Virus record (IMG/VR): IMGVR_UViG_3300045988_124542
Span: 1-64,000 of that record
Reading direction: 5' to 3' (one strand)
DNA length: 64,000 bases
Origin: a virus
Position 1 is the stretch's first letter. Every line of letters starts with the position of its first letter. Below are positions 12,808 to 56,775 of the stretch, piece after piece. Below the pieces are notes generated by a model, which was given only the letters and a program-made list of their open reading frames with translations, was not told the origin of the DNA and made no database searches. The translations under genes were made by a program, and so were the position numbers.

Positions 12808-13116
12808 TTATACACATTTTTCAATTTTAATTGATTTTGATGATAGATACATATTCCATGTTCCTCTGCCTCTGTCACCTTTTTCGTTTTGTTTTTGGAT
12901 TGTCAAGTACAGATCTCCGTCTTCACATACTTCAACTTTTTTCAAGAAGCCTATCATTTCATCTCCTGTTTCGTGTAAAATACGGATCTTATCTCCTTCT
13001 TTTAACCCATAATTGGAATCAAAGTATTCTTTTTTGATTCTATCAATATTGTCTTTATGATTTTTTATAGCATAAAGCTCGTTTCTTAATAAATAATTTA
13101 GTTGTTCTATTGTCAT
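12808..13116 (-). CDS. hypothetical protein
   Basis: 102-aa ORF. Confidence 0.4.
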   Translation of the reverse strand: MTIEQLNYLLRNELYAIKNHKDNIDRIKKEYFDSNYGLKEGDKIRILHETGDEMIGFLKKVEVCEDGDLYLTIQKQNEKGDRGRGTWNMYLSSKSIKIEKCV

Positions 13117-13670
13117 TTCTTTTCCTCCTTGTTTAATGGTATCAACCCTTTTCCATGCTTGTCATACCACAGCATAGCTATACAGTTCCATGCACATTGT
13201 GCAAGATGAAAACATCCTGTATCTGAGTCTATTCTTTCCCCTTTCATGTATTCCATTAGGTGTCTGGCAGCCGCAGCACGATACCGTTCAAACCCGTTGT
13301 CAAGGTTCTGCCATTTATTGGGTCCGTACTTCTTTGCACCAGCATGATAGACTTTTACAATGTCCTCAATCTCTTCCATTGGAAGTAAATCCCATCGTAG
13401 TTTATCGTCAATGATGTCATTTTTCACCGATTTGTTTTCTCTGGATACTTTGACAGGAATAATACCCATAATGTCCGTTCCTACGATAAACGTCTCTCCA
13501 TTGCAACAAACCTCAGCATATTCATCATCTACCTCTATGTCTGATACTGCCTCCACTATAGCTCCTCTGGCTATTTCTAATTCGGAACTGATTACATCAC
13601 TTTCCAACATGCGAAAAATAGATCCTTTTGGATAAAGGATGTTTTTAGTATTATTGTCCATCTTTTCCAT
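13113..13670 (-). CDS. DUF550/MazG-like putative dNTP pyrophosphohydrolase
   Basis: GAKKYG...W...RHL...D.DTG.FHLAQCAWN pattern as I recall for phage dATP/dGTP diphosphohydrolase N-terminal domain; from memory only. Confidence 0.4.
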   Translation of the reverse strand: MEKMDNNTKNILYPKGSIFRMLESDVISSELEIARGAIVEAVSDIEVDDEYAEVCCNGETFIVGTDIMGIIPVKVSRENKSVKNDIIDDKLRWDLLPMEEIEDIVKVYHAGAKKYGPNKWQNLDNGFERYRAAAARHLMEYMKGERIDSDTGCFHLAQCAWNCIAMLWYDKHGKGLIPLNKEEKK

Positions 13671-34064: not shown

Positions 34065-34871
34065 TCATTTATTTGTTTCACTTATGAAATTGACAACATC
34101 CTTTAGATATCCTTCTGTCATCTCTATGAAATTAACACAATCTAATTTGCTTAACTTGTAAATCAATGCCGGATTGTGTATTATGGCTATAATTTGTGTT
34201 TGTGGTTTATGGAATGACAATACATTATAAATTTGCATTATGTTATCAATATCAAGATTCCTGTCTGGCTCATCCATGAGAACCGTGTATTCAAAACTGC
34301 TTTTTGTTAATGCTATGCGGTTTCTTTTATAATACTTCAACAGGTTATCAATTCTTTTAATCCAAAACGCATTTGATTTTTTCTTGTATTCTACAAGATC
34401 TTGTATTGGAAATGTATAATCCTTTTGACCGAACATTAAATTGAAAAGTGATTCCAATGATAACACCACTTTCTCTCCATAAGATCTTCGAATATTATTC
34501 ACATACAAATCTAAGTTGCTGATGTTTTTCAATACGCTATCTCGATTCATCTCCGCCGATGGCAATAAACGGAATACTTTCCCTGCATAATCGGATGATA
34601 TGTCAATCCCATCAAAAACCTTATCATCGTCATCAAATATAGGTGGAAAATCCAGTGCCTCGGTCGGCATTTCAGAGCACATGGATTTCTCGCATAACGC
34701 ATACATTGATATGATGTTAAGCAAGGTTGATTTTCCGCTACCGTTTTTACCTATAATTACATTCACTCCTGGCTTGAAAATAAATTCTCTGCCATTTTCA
34801 AATGCTTCTATATCCGAAACATATTCAAATGGAGTTTTTGTATTGTCTTTTATTTTTACTGATGTTATCAT
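34065..34871 (-). CDS. ABC-type (AAA_15/21-like) ATPase
   Basis: Walker A GKNGSGKST, Walker B/D-loop VLMDEPDRNLD, H-loop IIAIIHNP; no nuclease domain fused. Confidence 0.7.
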   Translation of the reverse strand: MITSVKIKDNTKTPFEYVSDIEAFENGREFIFKPGVNVIIGKNGSGKSTLLNIISMYALCEKSMCSEMPTEALDFPPIFDDDDKVFDGIDISSDYAGKVFRLLPSAEMNRDSVLKNISNLDLYVNNIRRSYGEKVVLSLESLFNLMFGQKDYTFPIQDLVEYKKKSNAFWIKRIDNLLKYYKRNRIALTKSSFEYTVLMDEPDRNLDIDNIMQIYNVLSFHKPQTQIIAIIHNPALIYKLSKLDCVNFIEMTEGYLKDVVNFISETNK

Positions 34872-35875: not shown

Positions 35876-36538
35876 TCATTTCAGTTCTTTAATTAAAGCA
35901 TCCGCATATATTACAGCTAATTCAGCCGCCTTATCACACGCTTCCAATATTAATTCACCGTGAGGTCCACGTCCTGATACGGATGTGATCGGAAGCATGG
36001 TTTTTGCCATCTCGTATCTACGTTGTTCCCAATCTACATGGGTGCTACACGGTTCTTGATTGACCTGTATATATCTTCCTTCAATATTAGAAGATCTTAA
36101 TATTTCCGCATTCTCTTCGCCGAATGCAACCAGAATAGACCCACATCCTGGACTTTCACCTATTGTTCCATCTTCTCTGTGGAATTTTATCCTTCCTTTC
36201 ATGAACAATATACCTTTTGCTTTCGGGAATACAACATCCTGAAACATCTTATTGTCAAGACGATTAAAAAGAAGAGCTATTCCGTTATTGTGCTCTACCA
36301 TACGAGTAATAAAATGCTCTATAGTCGGTCTTGAATAAGGTGGGTTTAACCATACCCTTCCTTCCCATTTTTGTTTTAATCCATCTTGCTCTTTGTTATA
36401 CATAACCCTGGCTGTCCTCCATAACGGACGCATAGGCGCACATGGATCTAAATCAAATTCCCCTAAAGCGTCTATAATTTCTTTAGGTGTGTACCATTCA
36501 TCTGTACTGTTTTTAGATTTCTCAAATGATGTATTCAT
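35876..36538 (-). CDS. DNA N6-adenine methyltransferase (phage Dam-like, NPPY type)
   Basis: catalytic motif IV WLNPPYSRP. Confidence 0.75.
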   Translation of the reverse strand: MNTSFEKSKNSTDEWYTPKEIIDALGEFDLDPCAPMRPLWRTARVMYNKEQDGLKQKWEGRVWLNPPYSRPTIEHFITRMVEHNNGIALLFNRLDNKMFQDVVFPKAKGILFMKGRIKFHREDGTIGESPGCGSILVAFGEENAEILRSSNIEGRYIQVNQEPCSTHVDWEQRRYEMAKTMLPITSVSGRGPHGELILEACDKAAELAVIYADALIKELK

Positions 36539-36556: not shown

Positions 36557-37219
36557 TTAATCCCATCCTCCAGTAGTGTACAAAGATACATCTTCCTCCT
36601 CTACGTTTACACCTTTAATAGCCTGTAGAAGTTTTTTCTTTGTCTCTCGGCACATATTGTAACCATATCCTTTATACCGATATGAGCGCTCCCATGTGCT
36701 TACTGGAAAAGGAATATTTTCGTCAATGACCAGCCTCTTCATATGAAGATGTTCGAAGAATTTCTCATGATAGAGTAGTTTGTACTCGTATGCTACTATA
36801 CTTGCAGATGAGAATGGAAAATAATCATCTTCCTTTTCTTCGTATTTAGGCTCCTTATAGTAGGCCATTTTTGCTACAGTAAAGTCGAAGCTCCTGAGAA
36901 TCTCTTCTGGCTTTCCAAACTCTGACTCTATGAACTCTATCCATGCCTTTTCTCCCTCTTTCTGGAACGCACATACCTTCTCATTTCTGTACTTAAATTT
37001 CCATCCTTCTTTCTGATGTTTTTCATCATTGAACAAATCAACAGCTTCCTGAAAATCGTCTTCGCTTTCAAAGAAAATATCAATATCTTTTACTCTTTCT
37101 CCGGAAAGGATATTCTTAAAACATCCACCAGCTATGAACCCCTTGTGACCTTCCATATATTTGTCAAGCCATCTTATTTGCCAGAAATTATCTGGAGTAT
37201 CTATTATAAAATTGTTCAT
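36557..37219 (-). CDS. Pol-beta superfamily nucleotidyltransferase, class-II CCA-adding-head-like
   Basis: IAGGCFKNILSGERVKDIDIFF = hG[GS]x9-13DhD, closely resembling GGaVRD...DvDh of CCA-adding/poly(A) polymerase heads; possible third Asp in SFDFT. Confidence 0.5.
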   Translation of the reverse strand: MNNFIIDTPDNFWQIRWLDKYMEGHKGFIAGGCFKNILSGERVKDIDIFFESEDDFQEAVDLFNDEKHQKEGWKFKYRNEKVCAFQKEGEKAWIEFIESEFGKPEEILRSFDFTVAKMAYYKEPKYEEKEDDYFPFSSASIVAYEYKLLYHEKFFEHLHMKRLVIDENIPFPVSTWERSYRYKGYGYNMCRETKKKLLQAIKGVNVEEEDVSLYTTGGWD

Positions 37220-39907: not shown

Positions 39908-40096
39908 TTAAAATTCTTTTTCGTTACCACCTTTTTTAGAGGTGGTTTTATCAAAAAGAGGGTCGTTAGGATCTGTTTTGGGATTATAGCTAAATATACT
40001 TTTAGCTATTCTCTTCATATCCTTCTCTAATTTTCCACTTTTACTACTTCTGATCGTAGTAGTGGTTGATATTGTGAATTTCTTATTTTTTTTCAT
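39908..40096 (-). CDS. hypothetical small basic protein, coupled to transposase gene
   Basis: 62 aa; start overlaps transposase stop by 4 nt. Confidence 0.4.
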   Translation of the reverse strand: MKKNKKFTISTTTTIRSSKSGKLEKDMKRIAKSIFSYNPKTDPNDPLFDKTTSKKGGNEKEF

Positions 40097-41016
40097 GCCG
40101 TAATTTTCTTTAGTTGTGAATACCTTAATCGTCGTTTGGTATTCTGCAAAAATACATCGAATCTTTCAGATTCCGATAGATGTTTCGTGTTATATCTGAA
40201 AGATTCGCAATCTACATATCTTTGAAGATGTTTTCTCGACACCCAGAAATGGGTTCCAGAAATCATTTTCTTCAAATGGCTCCAATATCCTTCGATTGTG
40301 TTTGTTGATCTTCTGCCTATTACATACGCTCCCTTTTTGTGATATACTTTTTGATGATCAAACTTTTCTTTGTTGATCCCGTTATACGCATACCATTCGT
40401 CAGAATATATGGTAGAATTAGGATGAACGGTATTGTATATCAAAGGAAGTAAGGTTTTACCTTTTGTGTCTGTAACGACATAAGCGACAACAAATCCTTC
40501 TCGTTGGAGTGTCCCAAACACAGGGGTTTTATCTTTTAAAGATCTCCCCTGTGCATCTTTAACTTTATCCTTACTATGTCTATTCTTGTTTTTGCCACCA
40601 ATATAAGTTTCATCCACTTCAATCTCGCCTTTCAAACACGGCTCTTTTATTTCAATACTAAAACAATTATGAATACGTTGAAGCATAAACCAAGCCGTTT
40701 TCTGTGTTACTCCCACGATTTTAGACAACTGTAAAGATGATACTCCTCTTTTCATTTCAACAACAAAATAACAAGCCAACATCCATTTTCGTAATGAGAC
40801 TTTCGAATTTTCAAAAATCGTTCCTGTACGAACATTGAAATATTTACCCGTGTTTTTACACTTGTATCTATTTCCTTTGCATTTATACACCTTAGATTCC
40901 GGATCAAAAGGAGAAACAACGTGATCTCCCCACCTTTCTTTTTCAAGAAAGGTTATACACGCTTGCTCATCAGGGAACAATTTTGAAAATTCGGGAAGTG
41001 ATTTAAAATCGAACAT
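40093..41016 (-). mobile_element. IS1595-family (ISXO2-like) DDE transposase gene
   Basis: N-terminal zinc ribbon + HTH (KCKGNRYKCKNTGKYF...TQKTAWFMLQRI) and hallmark GEIEVDETYIGGK DDE block; terminal inverted repeats not identified by eye. Confidence 0.8.
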
Positions 41017-51586: not shown

Positions 51587-52065
51587 AACATTATGTATTT
51601 ATTTGTTAAACAAGTGATATTCAATTCAATAGCCCACAACGCAAGCTATTAACAGATACAGATATAGCGTTATCCAACGGATATACTATATAGGTTCATC
51701 ATGTCAGCATGTGTTATCGCTTTAACACATTGCAAATATACTACTTTTATTGTTACTACAAATATATATACTATCTTTTTTTTGTTAACTTGTATTAATT
51801 TCGATTCTATCATCTGATTATCAGCAATTTACAAAACATACAAGAGCAGTATTATGCGCGTACATTAATATGTGGGATATATGTTTATTTAAGTAGCTTA
51901 TAATCAATAGGTTACAATAATACATTGATTATCAATAATTTAAATAAACTATTGATAATCAGCGAGTTTGTAGGTTTGAGGTAAAAACGCGTTTCCGGTT
52001 TTCCAGCGAAGGGGGTGTGGGGGAGAAAACGCGTTTCGGGGGCGGGAGGTTCGTGATAGGTACCC

Positions 52066-52182
52066 CCTCTCTCTCATCACATAAATATTTTTTCTCATAT
52101 CTCTCATCACATAAACCTCTTTCTCATATCTCTCCTATCACATAAACATTTCACCATTCCTCTCCCTCATCACATAAAAGTA
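52066..52182. repeat. four tandem iteron-like repeats (C)TCATCACATAAA with 30-32 bp period
   Basis: copies at ~52073, 52103, 52133, 52165; interleaved TTTCTCATATCTC copies. Confidence 0.75.
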
Positions 52183-52210
52183 TGGGGAACCTATCCAAAG
52201 TTCCCCATAC
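52180..52210. terminator. perfect 11-bp-stem hairpin GTATGGGGAAC...GTTCCCCATAC; terminator for minus-strand gene ending at 52229
   Basis: read directly; T-run on minus strand follows. Confidence 0.6.
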
Positions 52211-52228
52211 TTATTTTACGACCAGTAA

Positions 52229-52621
52229 TTATTTACTTTCCCATATTAGTTTATCTTCGGCTATTCCGATCTTTACTTCCTCGCACTTTCTTCCTATCCA
52301 TCCATTGAGATACGAGAATGGTTCTGAGTTTTTTACTTCTTCTCCTAAGAAATTAAAAGCTTCAGTAGAAACATGGGATGCTTCATGGCAAACTGTTTCA
52401 AAATCAATTATTTTCTTATTAATAAACCATATCAAAAATCCCGTATTAGGATTTAATTTACACCCTCCGTATGGAACGGATACAGTTACAGCCTTGCTAT
52501 TATATACGTAACTAAAATCGTTATTGAAACATTCTACCATGCCAGATACGTCTTTTCCTACGTATATCCACAGATTAAAAGGATAGACTTCCGGATAGAA
52601 CTGATATAATTCACACTTCAT
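52229..52621 (-). CDS. small HExxH-motif protein (putative zinc metallopeptidase-like)
   Basis: CHEASHVSTEAFNFLGEE (HExxH + downstream Glu); last gene of 4-gene operon. Confidence 0.35.
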   Translation of the reverse strand: MKCELYQFYPEVYPFNLWIYVGKDVSGMVECFNNDFSYVYNSKAVTVSVPYGGCKLNPNTGFLIWFINKKIIDFETVCHEASHVSTEAFNFLGEEVKNSEPFSYLNGWIGRKCEEVKIGIAEDKLIWESK

Positions 52622-53586
52622 TTCGATAAAAGTTTTTTACTTTCAAGGAAGTCCTTAAACTGGTCACTTGATACGTCTATAACGAATCCAGCAGCACCAG
52701 CATGTCCTCCACCACCAAATCTCTTACTTACCTCACAGCAATCTACGCCGTCTTCCACGCATTCATAAAGAGAGAACCGGACTTTACCACCTGGCATAAT
52801 ACAAAATGGCATCAGGGCTTTAATTTTTCTACCATCTAACCAGTCAGGTGTAAGAGAATCAAATACTTTGGAACTAAATTCTGTAGTATTCATCGCCACG
52901 ACCTTAACCTCGTCTACGTAAGCTTCGAACGAGCACGCACTTACCTCTTGTTCGTTTTTGCCGGCCATGTAGTTAATTATAGCACGTCCTTCTTTAGCGA
53001 GATCATAGAAAATTAAATCCACCTCATTGTCCTTCATATTTTCTTTAAAATGGTCATACAAATACGACAATGCTATTAACACATTGAGTCTTATTTTTGA
53101 TCTCAAGGCATACTGGACGGCTACCACCGTATCCCAGCCTAAACCGGATTCTTTATTCCACACATCGTAGTCTGATAAGCACCTGACTATCGCCGGCACC
53201 TTCCCCATCAGCAGGTCCGAGGCCAGTGCGCACGCACCGGTACCGACTCTCCTCAACCCTGGAACTACGAACCCCCATGTCTTACTATCTTCGATAATTC
53301 CCTTGTGATGATCTATCCACATCAGGCTCTTTCCTTCATCAAGCCATTTCTTGAAAATCGTTTTAGAATCGGCTCCGAAAGACACGTCAAGAACGTAAAC
53401 AACCCCACATTCATCTACTTTATCAATAACTTTCTTTACATCATCTTCATACGAATACGGGATATAAATAACATCCTTGTTTTTACTGTTTTCGTACATG
53501 GTTGCGATGGCTGCCGACACAACGCCATCTAAATCCGATTTATGATAAACTATCGCCGTTTTATTCACCTTCATAATATTGCACAT
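52618..53586 (-). CDS. DHH-DHHA1 phosphoesterase (NrnA-like nanoRNase/pAp or cyclic-oligonucleotide phosphodiesterase family)
   Basis: motif I IVYHKSDLDGVVSA, DHH motif WIDHHKG, DHHA1 GGGH motif FGGGGHAGAAG; 322 aa. Confidence 0.75.
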   Translation of the reverse strand: MCNIMKVNKTAIVYHKSDLDGVVSAAIATMYENSKNKDVIYIPYSYEDDVKKVIDKVDECGVVYVLDVSFGADSKTIFKKWLDEGKSLMWIDHHKGIIEDSKTWGFVVPGLRRVGTGACALASDLLMGKVPAIVRCLSDYDVWNKESGLGWDTVVAVQYALRSKIRLNVLIALSYLYDHFKENMKDNEVDLIFYDLAKEGRAIINYMAGKNEQEVSACSFEAYVDEVKVVAMNTTEFSSKVFDSLTPDWLDGRKIKALMPFCIMPGGKVRFSLYECVEDGVDCCEVSKRFGGGGHAGAAGFVIDVSSDQFKDFLESKKLLSK

Positions 53587-53598
53587 AACTACCTAAAA

Positions 53599-54159
53599 TT
53601 ATTTACCAACAAACGTGATAACGTCCATATAGTCAATACCGGCATTCTCAGCACATACCTTATCCGAATCAGAGAACTGCCCTGGCAGACCACTGGCGTC
53701 TCCGACCATCAACGAACATCCCTTAAGTTGACTAAAGTTCATACCACGCATTACCGTGTCTTTACACTTCATAAGAATATCATCAATCATGCCCGTGTTA
53801 GGCTTCCTCATCGGATTTTGTTCGTCATTTGAATAACACAACCTTTTTTCATATAGGACGCCTCTTATGCCACGTTTTACCGCCAGATCATGTACGGACC
53901 TCAGTACGTATTCTATCTTAGCTTCAATATCAGCTCCAGAAACAAACCCAGCTTCTACTCCTCCTTGATTGCTTACGATAGCAAACACCTTAACGCCGTT
54001 CTCCTGCATGAGGTCAAGAGCCTTATTCACCACATCCATCTTAATCCTCATATCTGTCAAGTCTGTAGCGAACGTATTCCCAGAAGCGGTTTCTATAAGC
54101 GTCCCGTCAAAATCGAATAGCAGTATTCTTTTGTTTTTAATATCCAAATCGTTCATCAT
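53599..54159 (-). CDS. HAD-superfamily polynucleotide 3'-phosphatase (PNKP-phosphatase-like)
   Basis: motif I FDFDGTL, IVSNQGGV, KPNTGM, MVGDASG: the four PNK 3'-phosphatase-family motifs. Confidence 0.7.
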   Translation of the reverse strand: MMNDLDIKNKRILLFDFDGTLIETASGNTFATDLTDMRIKMDVVNKALDLMQENGVKVFAIVSNQGGVEAGFVSGADIEAKIEYVLRSVHDLAVKRGIRGVLYEKRLCYSNDEQNPMRKPNTGMIDDILMKCKDTVMRGMNFSQLKGCSLMVGDASGLPGQFSDSDKVCAENAGIDYMDVITFVGK

Positions 54160-54566
54160 TTTTCACTCCTACTCTTTTTTATTACCCTAAGCTGAAGACG
54201 GAATAGATTACTGTCTTCTTTTATAATATCATACACAGCATAAGAATTTTCTCCTATATCCCATCCAAGATAATCGAGCAGGTCTTTTAAGTAAACTCTC
54301 TTGTATTTTACACCAAGGTTATTTACCTTAAACGATCTCTCGTCTTCAACATCAGAAGCAGCCAGATAAAAGACCGTATTTTCAACTCCTTCAAATATCT
54401 TCCCTTCTTCTAAGCCGATAACAACCGCATCCGTTACCCCCATCCAATTCAAATTATCGACAGAGATAGTCATTATCTTACTTTTGCTGATTGACAACTT
54501 CCGGATCTTGCTTTCTTTAGTTTTAGATCCTAAAAAATCCTTACTGTTAAAAAAATCTACTTTCAT
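54156..54566 (-). CDS. hypothetical protein, first gene of DHH/phosphatase operon
   Basis: 136-aa ORF with 4-nt overlap to next gene. Confidence 0.45.
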   Translation of the reverse strand: MKVDFFNSKDFLGSKTKESKIRKLSISKSKIMTISVDNLNWMGVTDAVVIGLEEGKIFEGVENTVFYLAASDVEDERSFKVNNLGVKYKRVYLKDLLDYLGWDIGENSYAVYDIIKEDSNLFRLQLRVIKKSRSEK

Positions 54567-54712
54567 GGTTATAATGTTTTATATTGATGTTGCAAATATA
54601 CATAATAAATAATCAACAAAGAAATAAATAGGATTAAAACACGATAAAAAAACCCATAGCACTACGTATTTAATAAAAATAAATCAATGACGTAAGAGAA
54701 TAAAAATAATCA

Positions 54713-54751: not shown

Positions 54752-55407
54752 ATGGCAGAAATGAAAATAGGTTTTGTAACCTTCAATCCGGGATCAGGTG
54801 ATGGTGATCAGGCGGTTACCGTATCAGGTGAAAAATACGAAGGTCGTGTACAACGCACGCAACAAGTAGAATTTGGTGCCGAATCAGGGGGTGTTAAGAA
54901 AAGTGCTACCATCAACCAATCTCCGGTAGCTGAGTTCGTAAAAATAGATCCTACTGCATCTGTAGGGAAGAAGGTGGTACTGTAACAATCAACGGTACAA
55001 GTAACTCAACTAAATTAACGTTCTCCTTAACTCCGGACGAAACTCATCCTCTGACGTTGGAAATACCTACCTCCTATCAGGCGGCAGGTAAGGCTACCAA
55101 CAACGGCGCTGTTATCGCCGACGACCCTGGTGCAACAGGAGCCTTTGCTTTCAGTATCGTATTCTCCGATATTGCTGCGAACACTGATGTAAACGATCTG
55201 GTAAATACTCTTAAGGTGACGGCCGCCGGAGGTCAGACGGCTAATACGGTTATTACCCAGACAGCAGGTGATCCGTTCTTGGAAATAGACAAGGAGGTAA
55301 TTAACTTGGATGCAAACGGTACTCCTCAGACTATCAACGTTAATGCAAACATCAGGTGGACTATCACTCAAGCTGTTTCTAAGTTGGTAAGGAAAGTAAT
55401 GAAATAA
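54752..55407 (+). pseudogene. Ig-like/BACON-like surface-type protein gene split by a frameshift (ORFs 54752-54985 and 54934/55057-55407)
   Basis: both halves are Gly/Thr/Val-rich with similar beta-repeat character (DQAVTVSGEKYEG vs GGTVTINGTSNST); second reading frame is open from 54934 and only has a TTG start at 55057. Confidence 0.45.
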
Positions 55408-56396: not shown

Positions 56397-56413
56397 TGTC
56401 TTACTTTTTTTAG

Positions 56414-56485
56414 AGGCTTGTGGCGGAATCGAACCGCCCTACGAGATTTTGCAGATCCCTGACTAAACCACTCATCCAACAAGCC
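56414..56485 (-). tRNA. tRNA-Cys (GCA)
   Basis: cloverleaf folded by hand: acceptor GGCTTGT/ACAAGCC, T-arm GGCGG-TTCGATT-CCGCC, anticodon loop CTGCAAA; no encoded CCA. Confidence 0.7.
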
Positions 56486-56488
56486 ATG

Positions 56489-56560
56489 TAGCCCATGCCT
56501 GAATCGAACAGGCAACTTTTGATTAGGACTCAAGGGTTTTATCCGTTAAACTAATGGGCC
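56489..56560 (-). tRNA. tRNA-Arg (CCT), slightly atypical
   Basis: acceptor GGCCCAT/ATGGGCT, T-arm GCCTG-TTCGATT-CAGGC, anticodon loop GTCCTAA; one C.A mismatch in anticodon stem. Confidence 0.5.
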
Positions 56561-56630
56561 ATTTAATGTTTGCTATGTTCACACACCACAAACACTTAGA
56601 TAATTAACACTTTACACAAAATATGTACCG

Positions 56631-56701
56631 TTATCCAAGGAGGATTCGAACCTCCGCTAACAGAACCAAAATCTGTTGTGCTACCACTACACCATTGGAC
56701 A
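56631..56701 (-). tRNA. tRNA-Gln (TTG)
   Basis: U1-A72 acceptor start typical of bacterial tRNA-Gln, T-arm GGAGG-TTCGAAT-CCTCC, anticodon loop TTTTGGT. Confidence 0.65.
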
Positions 56702-56702
56702 G

Positions 56703-56775
56703 TGGTCCCGGAGGGATTTGAACCCACGATCTCGATGTTATGAGCATCTTGCTTTCACCACTAAGCCACAGGACC
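56703..56775 (-). tRNA. tRNA-Met (CAT) (elongator Met or Ile2 type)
   Basis: acceptor GGTCCTG/CGGGACC, T-loop TTCAAAT, anticodon loop CTCATAA. Confidence 0.65.

What the first reader, a model, noticed from the sequence alone, without database searches (positions are those of the whole stretch)
52229..54566. RNA-end processing operon (DHH-DHHA1 phosphoesterase + PNKP-type 3'-phosphatase + HExxH protein) beside the tRNA cluster
Four translationally coupled genes: an unknown 136-aa protein; a HAD phosphatase carrying all four polynucleotide-3'-phosphatase motifs (FDFDGTL, SNQGG, KPNTGM, VGDASG); a 322-aa DHH/DHHA1 enzyme (DHH and GGGH motifs) of the NrnA/pAp-phosphatase/cyclic-dinucleotide phosphodiesterase family; and a 130-aa HExxH protein. 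This is an end-healing/oligonucleotide-degrading toolkit. In T4-like phages such enzymes repair tRNAs cut by host anticodon nucleases. DHH-DHHA1 enzymes can also degrade signalling nucleotides (c-di-AMP, cyclic oligoadenylates, pGpG), which would make this an anti-defence (anti-CBASS/type III CRISPR) candidate. No partner kinase or ligase was seen, so the system may be incomplete or novel.
Basis: partly seen in the sequence, partly recalled or inferred. Interest (0 to 1): 0.65.

Follow-up and report, generated by a model that had tools for sequence, protein, structure and literature searches.

The report
Phage 3'-phosphatase plus DHH phosphoesterase operon
A gut crAss-like phage carries a small operon with a 3'-phosphatase of the DNA-repair (PNKP) type and a divergent DHH nuclease/phosphodiesterase; it most likely cleans and trims nucleic-acid ends within the phage's DNA and nucleotide metabolism rather than repairing tRNA, and both enzyme types are already known.

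Summary
Four co-directional minus-strand genes (136, 186, 322 and 130 aa) lie at 52229-54566 with 4-nt overlaps or a 12-nt gap. A Bacteroidetes-type promoter motif precedes them and a strong hairpin follows. All quoted motifs are present.

The window is about 94% identical to epsilon crAss-like phage csAssE-Sib, where two of the genes are already annotated as phosphodiesterase and PNK 3'-phosphatase.

- **HAD protein:** a true PNK3P-family member. Its only solved relatives are mammalian PNKP.
- **DHH protein:** a confident DHH-DHHA1 fold with all catalytic residues. It is 12-18% identical to NrnA, Rv2837c, TmPDE, DhhP and RecJ, is not a pyrophosphatase, and belongs to a phage-borne clade.
- **HExxH protein:** a widespread small phage zincin-like family, present in only a third of close relatives.

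The RNA/tRNA-repair reading is not supported. No ligase or kinase was found, and tRNA proximity is plain synteny. HAD homologues in other crAss-like phages sit beside ThyX, dNMP kinase and DNA polymerase. DHH relatives sit among helicases and nucleases.

Best reading (confidence about 0.4): a DNA or oligonucleotide 3'-end cleaning and trimming pair. An anti-signalling phosphodiesterase role remains open. This is a new member of known kinds, of moderate to low interest.

The parts
54590..54601 (-). Promoter-like motif GTATATTTGCAA (Bacteroidetes -7 type, TAnnTTTG), 24 nt upstream of the first ATG
   Evidence: Seen in the sequence. There are two exact copies in the window (54590 and 51730), each upstream of a minus-strand gene. 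The consensus itself is from my own knowledge of Bacteroides promoters. Function is inferred.
54156..54566 (-). 136-aa protein of unknown function, lineage-specific
   Evidence: No hit in Pfam, PHROGs, NCBIfam or PADLOC. Homologues exist only at 58% identity or more, in close relatives. It occurs in at least three allelic types (>90%, one locus at 76%, and about 62% identity to the window copy) and always lies directly upstream of the HAD gene.
53599..54159 (-). Stand-alone HAD-IIIA phosphatase of the PNK3P (polynucleotide 3'-phosphatase) family, 186 aa
   Evidence: PF08645 scores 77.6 bits over residues 12-178. TIGR01662 is passed. TIGR01664 'DNA 3'-phosphatase' scores 74 bits, below its 107.65 cut-off. 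The only PDB sequence relatives are mammalian PNKP phosphatase domains (E=8e-7). Motifs I-IV and the family-typical FSDSD..CAENxG tail are invariant in 5 homologues.
52618..53586 (-). Stand-alone DHH-DHHA1 phosphoesterase, 322 aa, from a phage-borne divergent clade
   Evidence: In 30 homologues H15, D18, D20, D67, D92-H93-H94, D141 and G292-G-G-H295 are invariant. The AF2 model has pLDDT 92. Foldseek hits in the PDB are only DHH-DHHA1 nucleotide or nucleic-acid enzymes, with no pyrophosphatase. The profile against PDB sequences gives 6mtz, DhhP and Rv2837c as best hits.
52229..52621 (-). 130-aa HExxH+E zincin-like protein (phrog_1365); accessory member of the operon
52178..52212 (-). Terminator-like hairpin (13-15 bp stem) followed by UUUUAU, directly after the last stop codon
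   Evidence: Inverted repeat I5 is 100% complementary. The RNA fold gives -28.8 kcal/mol, z=-5.5, and 0 of 200 shuffles fold as well.

Best explanation
The operon encodes a two-enzyme pair for processing nucleic-acid ends, and it belongs to the phage's DNA-replication, recombination and nucleotide-metabolism module.

- **HAD protein.** It is a PNKP-type 3'-phosphatase. It would use Asp16 as nucleophile and Asp18 as general acid, with Ser63, Lys119 and Asp154 completing the Mg2+ site. It removes 3'-phosphate groups from DNA ends, from short oligonucleotides, or possibly from 3'-nucleotides.
- **DHH-DHHA1 protein.** It is a two-metal phosphodiesterase or exonuclease that degrades short single-stranded oligonucleotides to 5'-mononucleotides.
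- **Working together.** Removing the blocking 3'-phosphate makes ends extendable or ligatable, which is repair of nicked phage DNA. It also makes fragments digestible, which is salvage of breakdown products of host nucleic acid into the dNMP pool. That pool feeds the neighbouring dUTPase and thymidylate synthase steps.
- **The other two genes.** The small HExxH zincin-like protein is a facultative helper of unknown substrate. The 136-aa protein is a lineage-specific addition.

Shown here: family membership, intact catalytic residues, folds, operon structure, and conservation and context in relatives. Inferred: the substrates (DNA versus RNA, polymer versus oligomer), the order of action and the physiological purpose.
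For: 1. The HAD is a true PNK3P member, and its only solved relatives are the DNA-repair enzyme PNKP.
2. HAD homologues in other crAss-like lineages lie in deoxynucleotide and replication clusters. In MH616963.1 the order is kDNA-ligase-like, dNMP kinase, ThyX, HAD, then dUTPase nearby. In MT835492.1 the genes are PolA, HAD, ThyX and a dNMP-kinase-like gene. Across 80 loci of that clade, ThyX lies within 8 kb in 33 and PolA in 32.
3. In the window the same-strand neighbours are an MmcB-like PDDEXK protein, dUTPase, SSB, sliding clamp, a RuvC-like resolvase and ThyA.
4. DHH relatives sit next to helicases and nucleases. In L091 and L005 these are PDDEXK_1 and a DEAD helicase. In L093 the order is AAA_24, RecD2 helicase, an SMC/Rad50-like ATPase, then DHH. 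L095 is a prophage.
5. The DHH fold matches NrnA, Rv2837c, TmPDE, DhhP and RecJ, all of which cut short nucleic acids or dinucleotides.
6. HAD->DHH adjacency is kept in both epsilon crAss-like genus-level groups even though DHH identity falls to 36%.
7. The HExxH family recurs next to HAD and/or DHH in four arrangements: the window, L004, L005 and L181-type loci.
Against: - No substrate was tested.
- The HAD scores below the TIGR01664 equivalog cut-off.
- The DHH is only 12-18% identical to any characterised enzyme, so its specificity is open. It could act on signalling nucleotides.
- Gene context in large phage genomes is weak evidence, because all non-structural genes cluster together.
- HAD-DHH adjacency is limited to epsilon crAss-like phages. 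DHH was found within 8 kb of HAD in 0 of 80 loci of the other HAD clade.
- 17 of 18 'type-2' HAD alleles in close relatives carry Ser or Asn in place of the motif-IV Asp. Phosphatase chemistry may therefore be altered or dispensable in part of the population.
- In-frame HAD-DHH fusion proteins exist only as singletons and are absent from 75 IMG/VR loci.
- In L002 the ATPase next to DHH is an orthologue of a window gene that lies 18 kb from the operon. That adjacency therefore carries no functional weight.
Confidence: 0.4

Rival explanations
1. Anti-defence phosphodiesterase. The DHH enzyme destroys a host immune second messenger. Candidates are CBASS cyclic di- or trinucleotides, type III CRISPR cyclic oligoadenylates, and the SAM-AMP signal of the Bacteroides type III-B system. 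The HAD then dephosphorylates the product or a 3'-phosphorylated signal.
For: - Phage DHH enzymes were predicted to counter such signals (PMC7824862).
- A 2026 preprint reports that a mimivirus DHH enzyme degrades 3'3'-cGAMP. One phage DHH enzyme also blocked 3'3'-cGAMP signalling in a cell-based reporter, although its catalytic mutant gave non-specific inhibition (bioRxiv 10.64898/2026.07.21.739742).
- The predicted hosts are Bacteroidia (PMC11054128).
- The common B. fragilis type III-B system signals with SAM-AMP, which a DHH-family NrN enzyme degrades (PMC10600005).
- The locus is mosaic, with several alleles of the 136-aa and HAD genes, a C-terminal extension that is present or absent, an accessory HExxH gene and IscB-like insertions.
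- The DHH gene seems to have been exchanged between lineages. The syntenic relative is 36% identical, while non-syntenic ones are 40-46%.
- In L005 the DHH lies near a Tad2-like gene and DNA methyltransferases.
Against: - No hit to any PADLOC model.
- No close cellular relative. The best is 30% identity, in phage-like contexts, so there is no sign of capture of a host NrN or GdpP.
- The DHH itself is conserved (at least 86% identical in all but one of 80 close loci, where it is 73%) and is core in that population.
- This reading gives the tightly linked PNKP-type phosphatase no role.
- Most contexts are replication or recombination rather than recognised anti-defence islands.
Confidence: 0.25
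2. RNA or tRNA end-healing. The HAD removes 3'- or 2',3'-cyclic phosphates left by host anticodon nucleases or other RNases. This would allow tRNAs to be repaired, for example by the phage nucleotidyltransferase that resembles CCA-adding enzymes, while the DHH clears RNA fragments.
For: - Stand-alone HAD phosphatases are part of predicted phage RNA-repair sets (PMC7824862).
- The near-identical relative encodes a Ro60/TROVE-like protein and a poly(A)-polymerase/CCA-adding-like nucleotidyltransferase. The latter lies at window 36557-37219.
- The phage carries six tRNAs, four of them 1.85 kb from the operon.
Against: - No RNA ligase and no 5'-kinase in the annotated 151-kb relative or in 20 further window ORFs.
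- The HAD fits the DNA 3'-phosphatase family and not the T4 Pnkp HAD.
- The Ro60-like and nucleotidyltransferase genes are tens of kb away.
- tRNA genes are near HAD or DHH only in syntenic relatives and are absent in six other contexts.
- HAD homologues elsewhere sit with ThyX, dNMP kinase and PolA.
Confidence: 0.12
3. Small-molecule nucleotide-pool control. The pair acts on mononucleotides or dinucleotides only, such as pAp, 3'-(d)NMP, pNpN nanoRNA or an unwanted canonical nucleotide. It would reshape the pool, perhaps together with the phage dATP/dGTP diphosphohydrolase, rather than act on polymer ends.
For: - NrnA-type enzymes hydrolyse pAp and dinucleotides (PMC9779919).
- The phage encodes a dATP/dGTP diphosphohydrolase (window 13113-13670). 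In L002 that gene lies directly after the DHH gene.
- HAD homologues adjoin ThyX and dNMP kinase.
Against: - Characterised PNK3P enzymes prefer polynucleotide 3'-ends (my own knowledge).
- The diphosphohydrolase is about 40 kb from the operon in the window.
Confidence: 0.15

Closest known systems
Phosphatase domain of mammalian PNKP, with yeast Tpp1 and plant ZDP (Pfam PF08645 PNK3P; TIGR01664 DNA 3'-phosphatase)
   Same: HAD-IIIA fold with DxDGT, S/T, K and GDxxG motifs. The family-typical 'T.SG..F' insert follows motif I, and the 'FSDSD..AENxG' tail follows motif IV. Pfam covers residues 12-178. The only PDB sequence hits are PNKP.
   Different: It is a stand-alone 186-aa protein with no kinase and no FHA domain. 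It scores below the TIGR01664 equivalog cut-off. The ancestral form in relatives carries an unrelated C-terminal extension of about 80-105 aa. The substrate is untested.
Phage T4 Pnkp (PseT) with Rnl1, the tRNA-repair pathway
   Same: A phage-encoded HAD 3'-phosphatase, in a phage that also carries tRNA genes.
   Different: The T4-type HAD model PF25109 is not met (14.5 against 27.6 bits). There is no kinase domain and no RNA ligase anywhere in the relative's genome.
Stand-alone DHH-DHHA1 enzymes: NrnA, NrnB, Rv2837c/CnpB, T. maritima PDE TM1595, Borrelia DhhP, and archaeal PAP phosphatase
   Same: Two-lobe DHH plus DHHA1 architecture of about 320 aa. Motifs I-IV and GGGH are all invariant. 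These are the top Foldseek and profile hits. Distant homologues are labelled NrnB/COG2404 by JGI.
   Different: Only 12-18% identity. The NrnA equivalog model scores 12.9 against 350 bits. A 33-residue ordered helix (186-218) links the lobes. The DHHA1 'RxRxR' phosphate clamp is reduced to R-x-S-L-Y, as read from the A1 consensus. The clade is phage-borne.
RecJ catalytic core
   Same: DHH domain, long connecting helix, DHHA1 domain. Foldseek probability is 1.0 and TM is about 0.5. The genomic context is recombination and replication.
   Different: There is no OB-fold and no extra RecJ domain. TIGR00644 scores 21 against 397 bits.
Viral and CRISPR-associated DHH signal-degrading enzymes: the mimivirus DHH phosphodiesterase of the 2026 preprint, and B. 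fragilis NrN (SAM-AMP phosphodiesterase)
   Same: The DHH-DHHA1 fold. The preprint notes an ordered inter-lobe helix in viral groups 4 and 5. The host class is Bacteroidia.
   Different: No specific sequence link could be shown. There is no PADLOC hit and no close cellular homologue. Activity is untested.
Small phage zincin-like proteins (phrog_1365; entries named PolyVal metallopeptidase or SprT-like in BFVD)
   Same: The HExxH helix followed by a helix carrying a conserved Glu. Size is 110-140 aa. Foldseek TM is 0.6-0.75 to many phage proteins.

Membership tests
PNK3P polynucleotide 3'-phosphatase (PF08645) | Score above Pfam's gathering threshold over the whole domain | tested here: met
   77.6 bits against 22; residues 12-178 match profile positions 2-155 of 161.
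PNK3P polynucleotide 3'-phosphatase (PF08645) | HAD catalytic motifs I-IV (DxDGT, S/T, K, GDxxG) | tested here: met
   FDFDGTL, SNQGG, KPNTGM and VGDASG are in the translation. They are invariant in 5 homologues, except that motif IV Asp is Asn or Ser in the type-2 allele.
DNA 3'-phosphatase equivalog (TIGR01664) | Score above NCBIfam's curated cut-off | tested here: not met
   74.1 bits against 107.65. It is still the best NCBIfam hit.
PNK3P polynucleotide 3'-phosphatase (PF08645) | Hydrolysis of 3'-phosphate on DNA or RNA ends | not testable with these tools
   Needs an enzyme assay.
T4-type Pnkp end-healing enzyme | T4-type HAD domain (PF25109) joined to a P-loop 5'-kinase | tested here: not met
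   PF25109 scores 14.5 against 27.6 bits. The protein is 186 aa with the HAD domain only.
Phage RNA-repair system (healing plus sealing) | An RNA ligase (Rnl1, Rnl2 or RtcB) and a 5'-kinase encoded with the phosphatase | tested here: not met
   None is annotated in the 151-kb relative. None was found in 20 further window ORFs. The scan is not exhaustive for very divergent proteins.
DHH-DHHA1 phosphoesterase superfamily | DHH motifs I-IV and the DHHA1 GGGH motif | tested here: met
   H15, D18, D20, D67, D92-H93-H94, D141 and G292-G-G-H295 are invariant in 30 sequences. PF02272 scores 29.9 against 25.9. PF01368 scores 22.7, below its 28.1 cut-off.
DHH-DHHA1 phosphoesterase superfamily | Two-lobe fold shared with solved members | tested here: met
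   The model has pLDDT 92. There are 79 PDB matches with E<=0.001, and all 50 listed are DHH-family enzymes at probability 1.0.
NrnA (bifunctional oligoribonuclease / pAp phosphatase) equivalog | NCBIfam NF053633 cut-off | tested here: not met
   12.9 against 350 bits. Identity to solved NrnA structures is 14-15%.
RecJ | TIGR00644 cut-off and the OB-fold domain | tested here: not met
   21.3 against 396.9 bits. The 322-aa protein has only the two core lobes.
Family II inorganic pyrophosphatase (DHH-DHHA2) | DHHA2 C-terminal domain and fold match to pyrophosphatases | tested here: not met
   The C-terminal domain is DHHA1. No pyrophosphatase appears among the 50 listed Foldseek hits or the 15 profile hits.
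Zincin / gluzincin metallopeptidases | HExxH plus a downstream Glu as third zinc ligand | tested here: met
   H79, E80 and H83 are invariant, and E100 is kept in at least 90% of 45 homologues.
Zincin / gluzincin metallopeptidases | Fold match to solved zincins, or a Pfam peptidase family | tested here: inconclusive
Known anti-defence or defence-associated signal phosphodiesterases | Sequence match to a defence-system-associated model, or demonstrated cleavage of a signal | tested here: inconclusive
   No PADLOC hit at E<=0.1, but PADLOC holds defence proteins rather than anti-defence proteins. Cleavage cannot be tested here.

The most novel reading that the evidence does not exclude
The phage-borne DHH-DHHA1 enzyme is an anti-CRISPR or anti-CBASS enzyme tuned to Bacteroidia. 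It would hydrolyse the SAM-AMP signal of the common Bacteroides type III-B CorA system, or cyclic oligonucleotides. The fused-in-operon PNKP-type phosphatase and the small zincin-like protein would finish or broaden the inactivation. This would be a multi-enzyme signal-erasing cassette that is core to epsilon crAss-like phages.
Probability: 0.15. Interest if true: 0.75.

Novelty: new member of a known kind. Interest (0 to 1): 0.35.

Why it matters
Epsilon crAss-like phages make up a sizeable share of the human gut virome. They encode a minimal replication apparatus and no DNA polymerase (PMC7886860). A conserved 3'-phosphatase and DHH nuclease pair may therefore help explain how they keep DNA ends usable or recycle host nucleic acid. 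If the DHH enzyme instead degrades immune signalling nucleotides, it would be a ready candidate for the first counter-defence enzyme of this phage group against Bacteroides type III CRISPR or CBASS. Either outcome can be tested with two small soluble proteins. As it stands, both enzyme families are known, both genes are already annotated in GenBank for the close relative, and the idea of phage DHH counter-defence is already published.

Tried and rejected
- **RNA ligase or kinase.** I read the full annotation of the 151-kb relative and ran Pfam scans on 20 unannotated window ORFs. Nothing was found. The scans instead showed a Dam methylase, an IS1595 transposase and a DUF3268 zinc-finger protein.
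- **HAD-DHH fusion proteins as linkage evidence.** P0003 and P0008 look like fusions. Each is a singleton, and none of the 75 DHH-containing ORFs found in the 80 IMG/VR close loci has an in-frame fusion. I treat this as weak evidence and a possible assembly artefact.
- **DHH as an Mre11/SbcD substitute next to a Rad50-like ATPase.** In L002 the neighbouring 264-aa ATPase is a 70%-identical orthologue of window 34065-34871, which lies 18 kb from the operon. It is also unrelated to the long SMC-like protein of L093. Only L093 supports the idea.
- **The 'Zincin superfamily protease' near the HAD in crAssphage ctbg_1.** It is not a clear homologue of the HExxH family. hhalign gives probability 56%, confined to the motif region.
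- **The 144-aa gene between HExxH and HAD in L004.** It is not related to the 136-aa protein.
- **PADLOC scan** of all four proteins gave no hits.
- **Rfam scan** of the whole window found only the four tRNAs.
- **Foldseek against afdb50** was not available. The HExxH model was searched against BFVD instead.
- **The crAssE-Sib paper and Yutin et al. 2021** do not mention these genes.
Full report
**Observation**

One search confirms four co-directional minus-strand ORFs:
- 54566-54156, 136 aa
- 54159-53599, 186 aa
- 53586-52618, 322 aa
- 52621-52229, 130 aa

The first two overlap by 4 nt. The second and third are separated by 12 nt. The last two overlap by 4 nt.

The unit has plausible boundaries. 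GTATATTTGCAA lies 24 nt upstream of the first ATG; it is a TAnnTTTG-type element, which I know as the Bacteroides -7 promoter consensus. A second exact copy precedes the next downstream gene. A 15-bp hairpin followed by a U-run sits directly after the last stop codon (-28.8 kcal/mol, z=-5.5). The four tRNA genes (56413-56775) are 1.85 kb upstream, with three genes in between.

**Origin**

The region is about 94% identical to phage csAssE-Sib (OR575929.1, 151 kb, human gut). PMC11054128 describes this phage as an epsilon crAss-like phage whose likely hosts are Bacteroidia. In GenBank the DHH gene is already annotated 'phosphodiesterase (NrnA)' and the HAD gene 'polynucleotide kinase, 3 phosphatase'. 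Neither that paper nor Yutin et al. 2021 discusses them.

**The HAD protein**

- PF08645 PNK3P scores 77.6 bits (cut-off 22) over the whole domain.
- TIGR01662 HAD-IIIA is passed.
- TIGR01664 'DNA 3'-phosphatase' is the best NCBIfam hit but scores below its cut-off (74 against 108).
- The T4-type HAD model PF25109 is not met.

The only PDB sequence relatives are mammalian PNKP phosphatase domains. Five homologues keep motifs I-IV and the family-typical FSDSD..CAENxG tail. It is therefore a stand-alone PNKP-type 3'-phosphatase and not a sugar phosphatase.

In relatives the gene is usually longer, at 264-291 aa, because of an unassignable C-terminal extension. The window copy is a deletion form.

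**The DHH protein**

Thirty homologues down to 29% identity keep H15, D18, D20, D67, D92-H93-H94, D141 and the GGGH motif. The AlphaFold model is confident (pLDDT 92). It shows two lobes joined by a 33-residue helix.

Foldseek against the PDB returns only DHH-DHHA1 nucleotide or nucleic-acid enzymes, all at 12-18% identity. These are an uncharacterised H. pylori protein, archaeal PAP phosphatase, NrnA, TM1595, DhhP, Rv2837c, RecJ and GdpP. No pyrophosphatase appears. A profile search against PDB sequences agrees.

The equivalog models for NrnA and RecJ fail by a wide margin. A scan of 185,579 species genomes found only relatives at 30% identity or less, in phage-like or prophage contexts. The clade is therefore phage-borne, and its substrate cannot be read from homology.

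**The HExxH protein**

A full HMMER search found 253 clusters of 110-140-aa proteins. H79, E80 and H83 are invariant and E100 nearly so. This is an HExxH+E pattern like that of gluzincins.

The 136-aa protein has no family and only close homologues.

**Conservation among close relatives**

Among 80 close viral loci, the 136-aa, HAD and DHH genes are adjacent wherever the contig allows. One search gives the counts:
- HExxH is present in 24 of 72 loci.
- The HAD occurs as two alleles that are 66% identical, in 52 and 18 loci.
- 17 of the 18 type-2 alleles have Ser or Asn in place of the motif-IV Asp.
- The C-terminal extension is present in 41 of 70 loci.
- The 136-aa gene has at least three alleles.
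- These variants combine freely.

Six loci carry an insertion of more than 1 kb between HAD and DHH. In L066 it is a 408-aa RuvC/HNH (IscB-like) gene.

**Conservation among distant relatives**

A syntenic genus-level relative (L004, L092) keeps HAD->DHH. Identities to the window proteins there are dUTPase 77%, the 179-aa protein 68%, MmcB-like 60%, HAD 54% and DHH 36%.

Non-syntenic DHH genes are closer to the window's, at 40-46% identity. This suggests the DHH gene has been replaced in one lineage.

In-frame HAD-DHH fusions exist only as singleton proteins. None was seen in the 75 DHH-containing ORFs found in those loci.

**Context elsewhere**

HAD homologues in other crAss-like phages lie in deoxynucleotide and replication clusters:
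- MH616963.1: kDNA-ligase-like, dNMP kinase, ThyX, HAD, with dUTPase nearby.
- MT835492.1: PolA, HAD, ThyX and a dNMP-kinase-like gene.
- Across 80 loci of that clade, within 8 kb of the HAD: ThyX in 33, PolA in 32, DHH in 0, and the HExxH family in 9, as HExxH, a 114-aa gene, then HAD.

DHH relatives lie among helicases and nucleases:
- After PDDEXK_1 and a DEAD helicase in L091 and L005.
- After AAA_24, RecD2 and an SMC-like ATPase in L093.
- In a prophage in L095.
- Next to the dATP/dGTP diphosphohydrolase in L002.

The ATPase adjacent to DHH in L002 is an orthologue of a window gene 18 kb away, so that adjacency means little. tRNA genes accompany HAD or DHH only in the syntenic relatives.

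**Interpretation**

The RNA or tRNA-repair reading lacks its defining partners. No ligase or kinase was found. The HAD type and the gene context also argue against it. The relative does encode a Ro60-like protein and a CCA-adding-like nucleotidyltransferase far from the operon, so a minor RNA role cannot be excluded.

The best-supported reading is a pair that cleans 3'-ends and trims them exonucleolytically, serving DNA repair and/or salvage of oligonucleotides within the replication and nucleotide-metabolism module (confidence 0.4).

The main rival is a signal-degrading anti-defence phosphodiesterase (0.25). It rests on published ideas and partial experiments for viral DHH enzymes. It also rests on the SAM-AMP/NrN biology of Bacteroides and on the mosaic nature of the locus. 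No specific sequence link supports it.

**Novelty**

Both enzyme families are known, and the genes are already annotated in the close relative. The pairing itself is uncharacterised and confined to one phage group. I rate it a new member of a known kind, with interest 0.35.

Noticed in passing
window 54752-55407 (+ strand), around 54970: The BACON-like carbohydrate-binding gene is an intact 218-aa ORF in csAssE-Sib, where it is annotated 'glycosyl hydrolase family 5 protein'. In the window it is split into 77-aa and 116-aa ORFs by a 1-nt deletion in an A-run (GGGAAAG -> GGGAAG), relative to csAssE-Sib and to L009. L009 is otherwise identical in the operon. This is either a real frameshift or an assembly error.
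   Followed up: partly
window 51814-52178: The intergenic region downstream of the operon is complex. It holds four direct repeats of about 20 nt (TTTATGTGATGAGAGAGG-like) spaced 30-32 nt apart (52066-52178). It also holds two copies of the palindromic AAAACGCGTTTC(C/G)GG (51984-52040) and several TGATTATCA-type inverted repeats (51814-51968). Rfam finds nothing here. The small 'hypothetical protein' annotated over the equivalent repeats in csAssE-Sib (1938-2105) is probably not a gene.
   Followed up: partly
L066 4751-5977 (also L044, L045, L059, L072 and L069-type loci): In about six close relatives an insertion of more than 1 kb lies between the HAD and DHH genes. In L066 it is a 408-aa ORF with a RuvC-like N-terminus and an HNH motif (IscB-like or RRXRR-type mobile nuclease). 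The junction seems to be a hotspot for mobile elements.
   Followed up: partly
close relatives L021, L022, L026 etc.; L001 3537-4412: A second HAD allele is 66% identical to the window's. It carries SNQCD in place of SNQGG, and Asn or Ser in place of the motif-IV Asp, in 17 of 18 loci. This raises the question whether these copies are still active phosphatases.
   Followed up: partly
window 40093-41016 (-): An IS1595-family (ISXO2-like DDE) transposase gene lies inside the phage genome (Pfam E=3e-42). csAssE-Sib instead has TnpB/IS605-type genes elsewhere.
   Followed up: no
window 13113-13670 (-); L002 6900-7718: A dATP/dGTP diphosphohydrolase (PF18909) is encoded by the phage. In the related contig L002 it lies directly after the DHH gene. 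It may indicate depletion of a canonical purine dNTP and possibly modified DNA.
   Followed up: no
window 36557-37219 (-) and 35876-36538 (-): The 220-aa orthologue of the csAssE-Sib 'polyA polymerase / CCA-adding enzyme' has a GG..K..L.G....DIDIF nucleotidyltransferase motif but no Pfam hit. It lies next to a Dam-type methyltransferase that csAssE-Sib lacks at that position.
   Followed up: partly
L002 1042-3510, L003 689-4081: The helicase gene upstream of the DHH gene in these related contigs carries an intein with a LAGLIDADG homing endonuclease. The product is 822 aa in one contig and 1130 aa in the other.
   Followed up: no
L005 6001-7416 (P0036-P0041): One DHH subgroup (44-46% identity) carries an extra C-terminal domain of about 150 aa with no Pfam match. 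In L005 the gene lies among DNA methyltransferases and a Tad2-like (PF11195) gene.
   Followed up: partly
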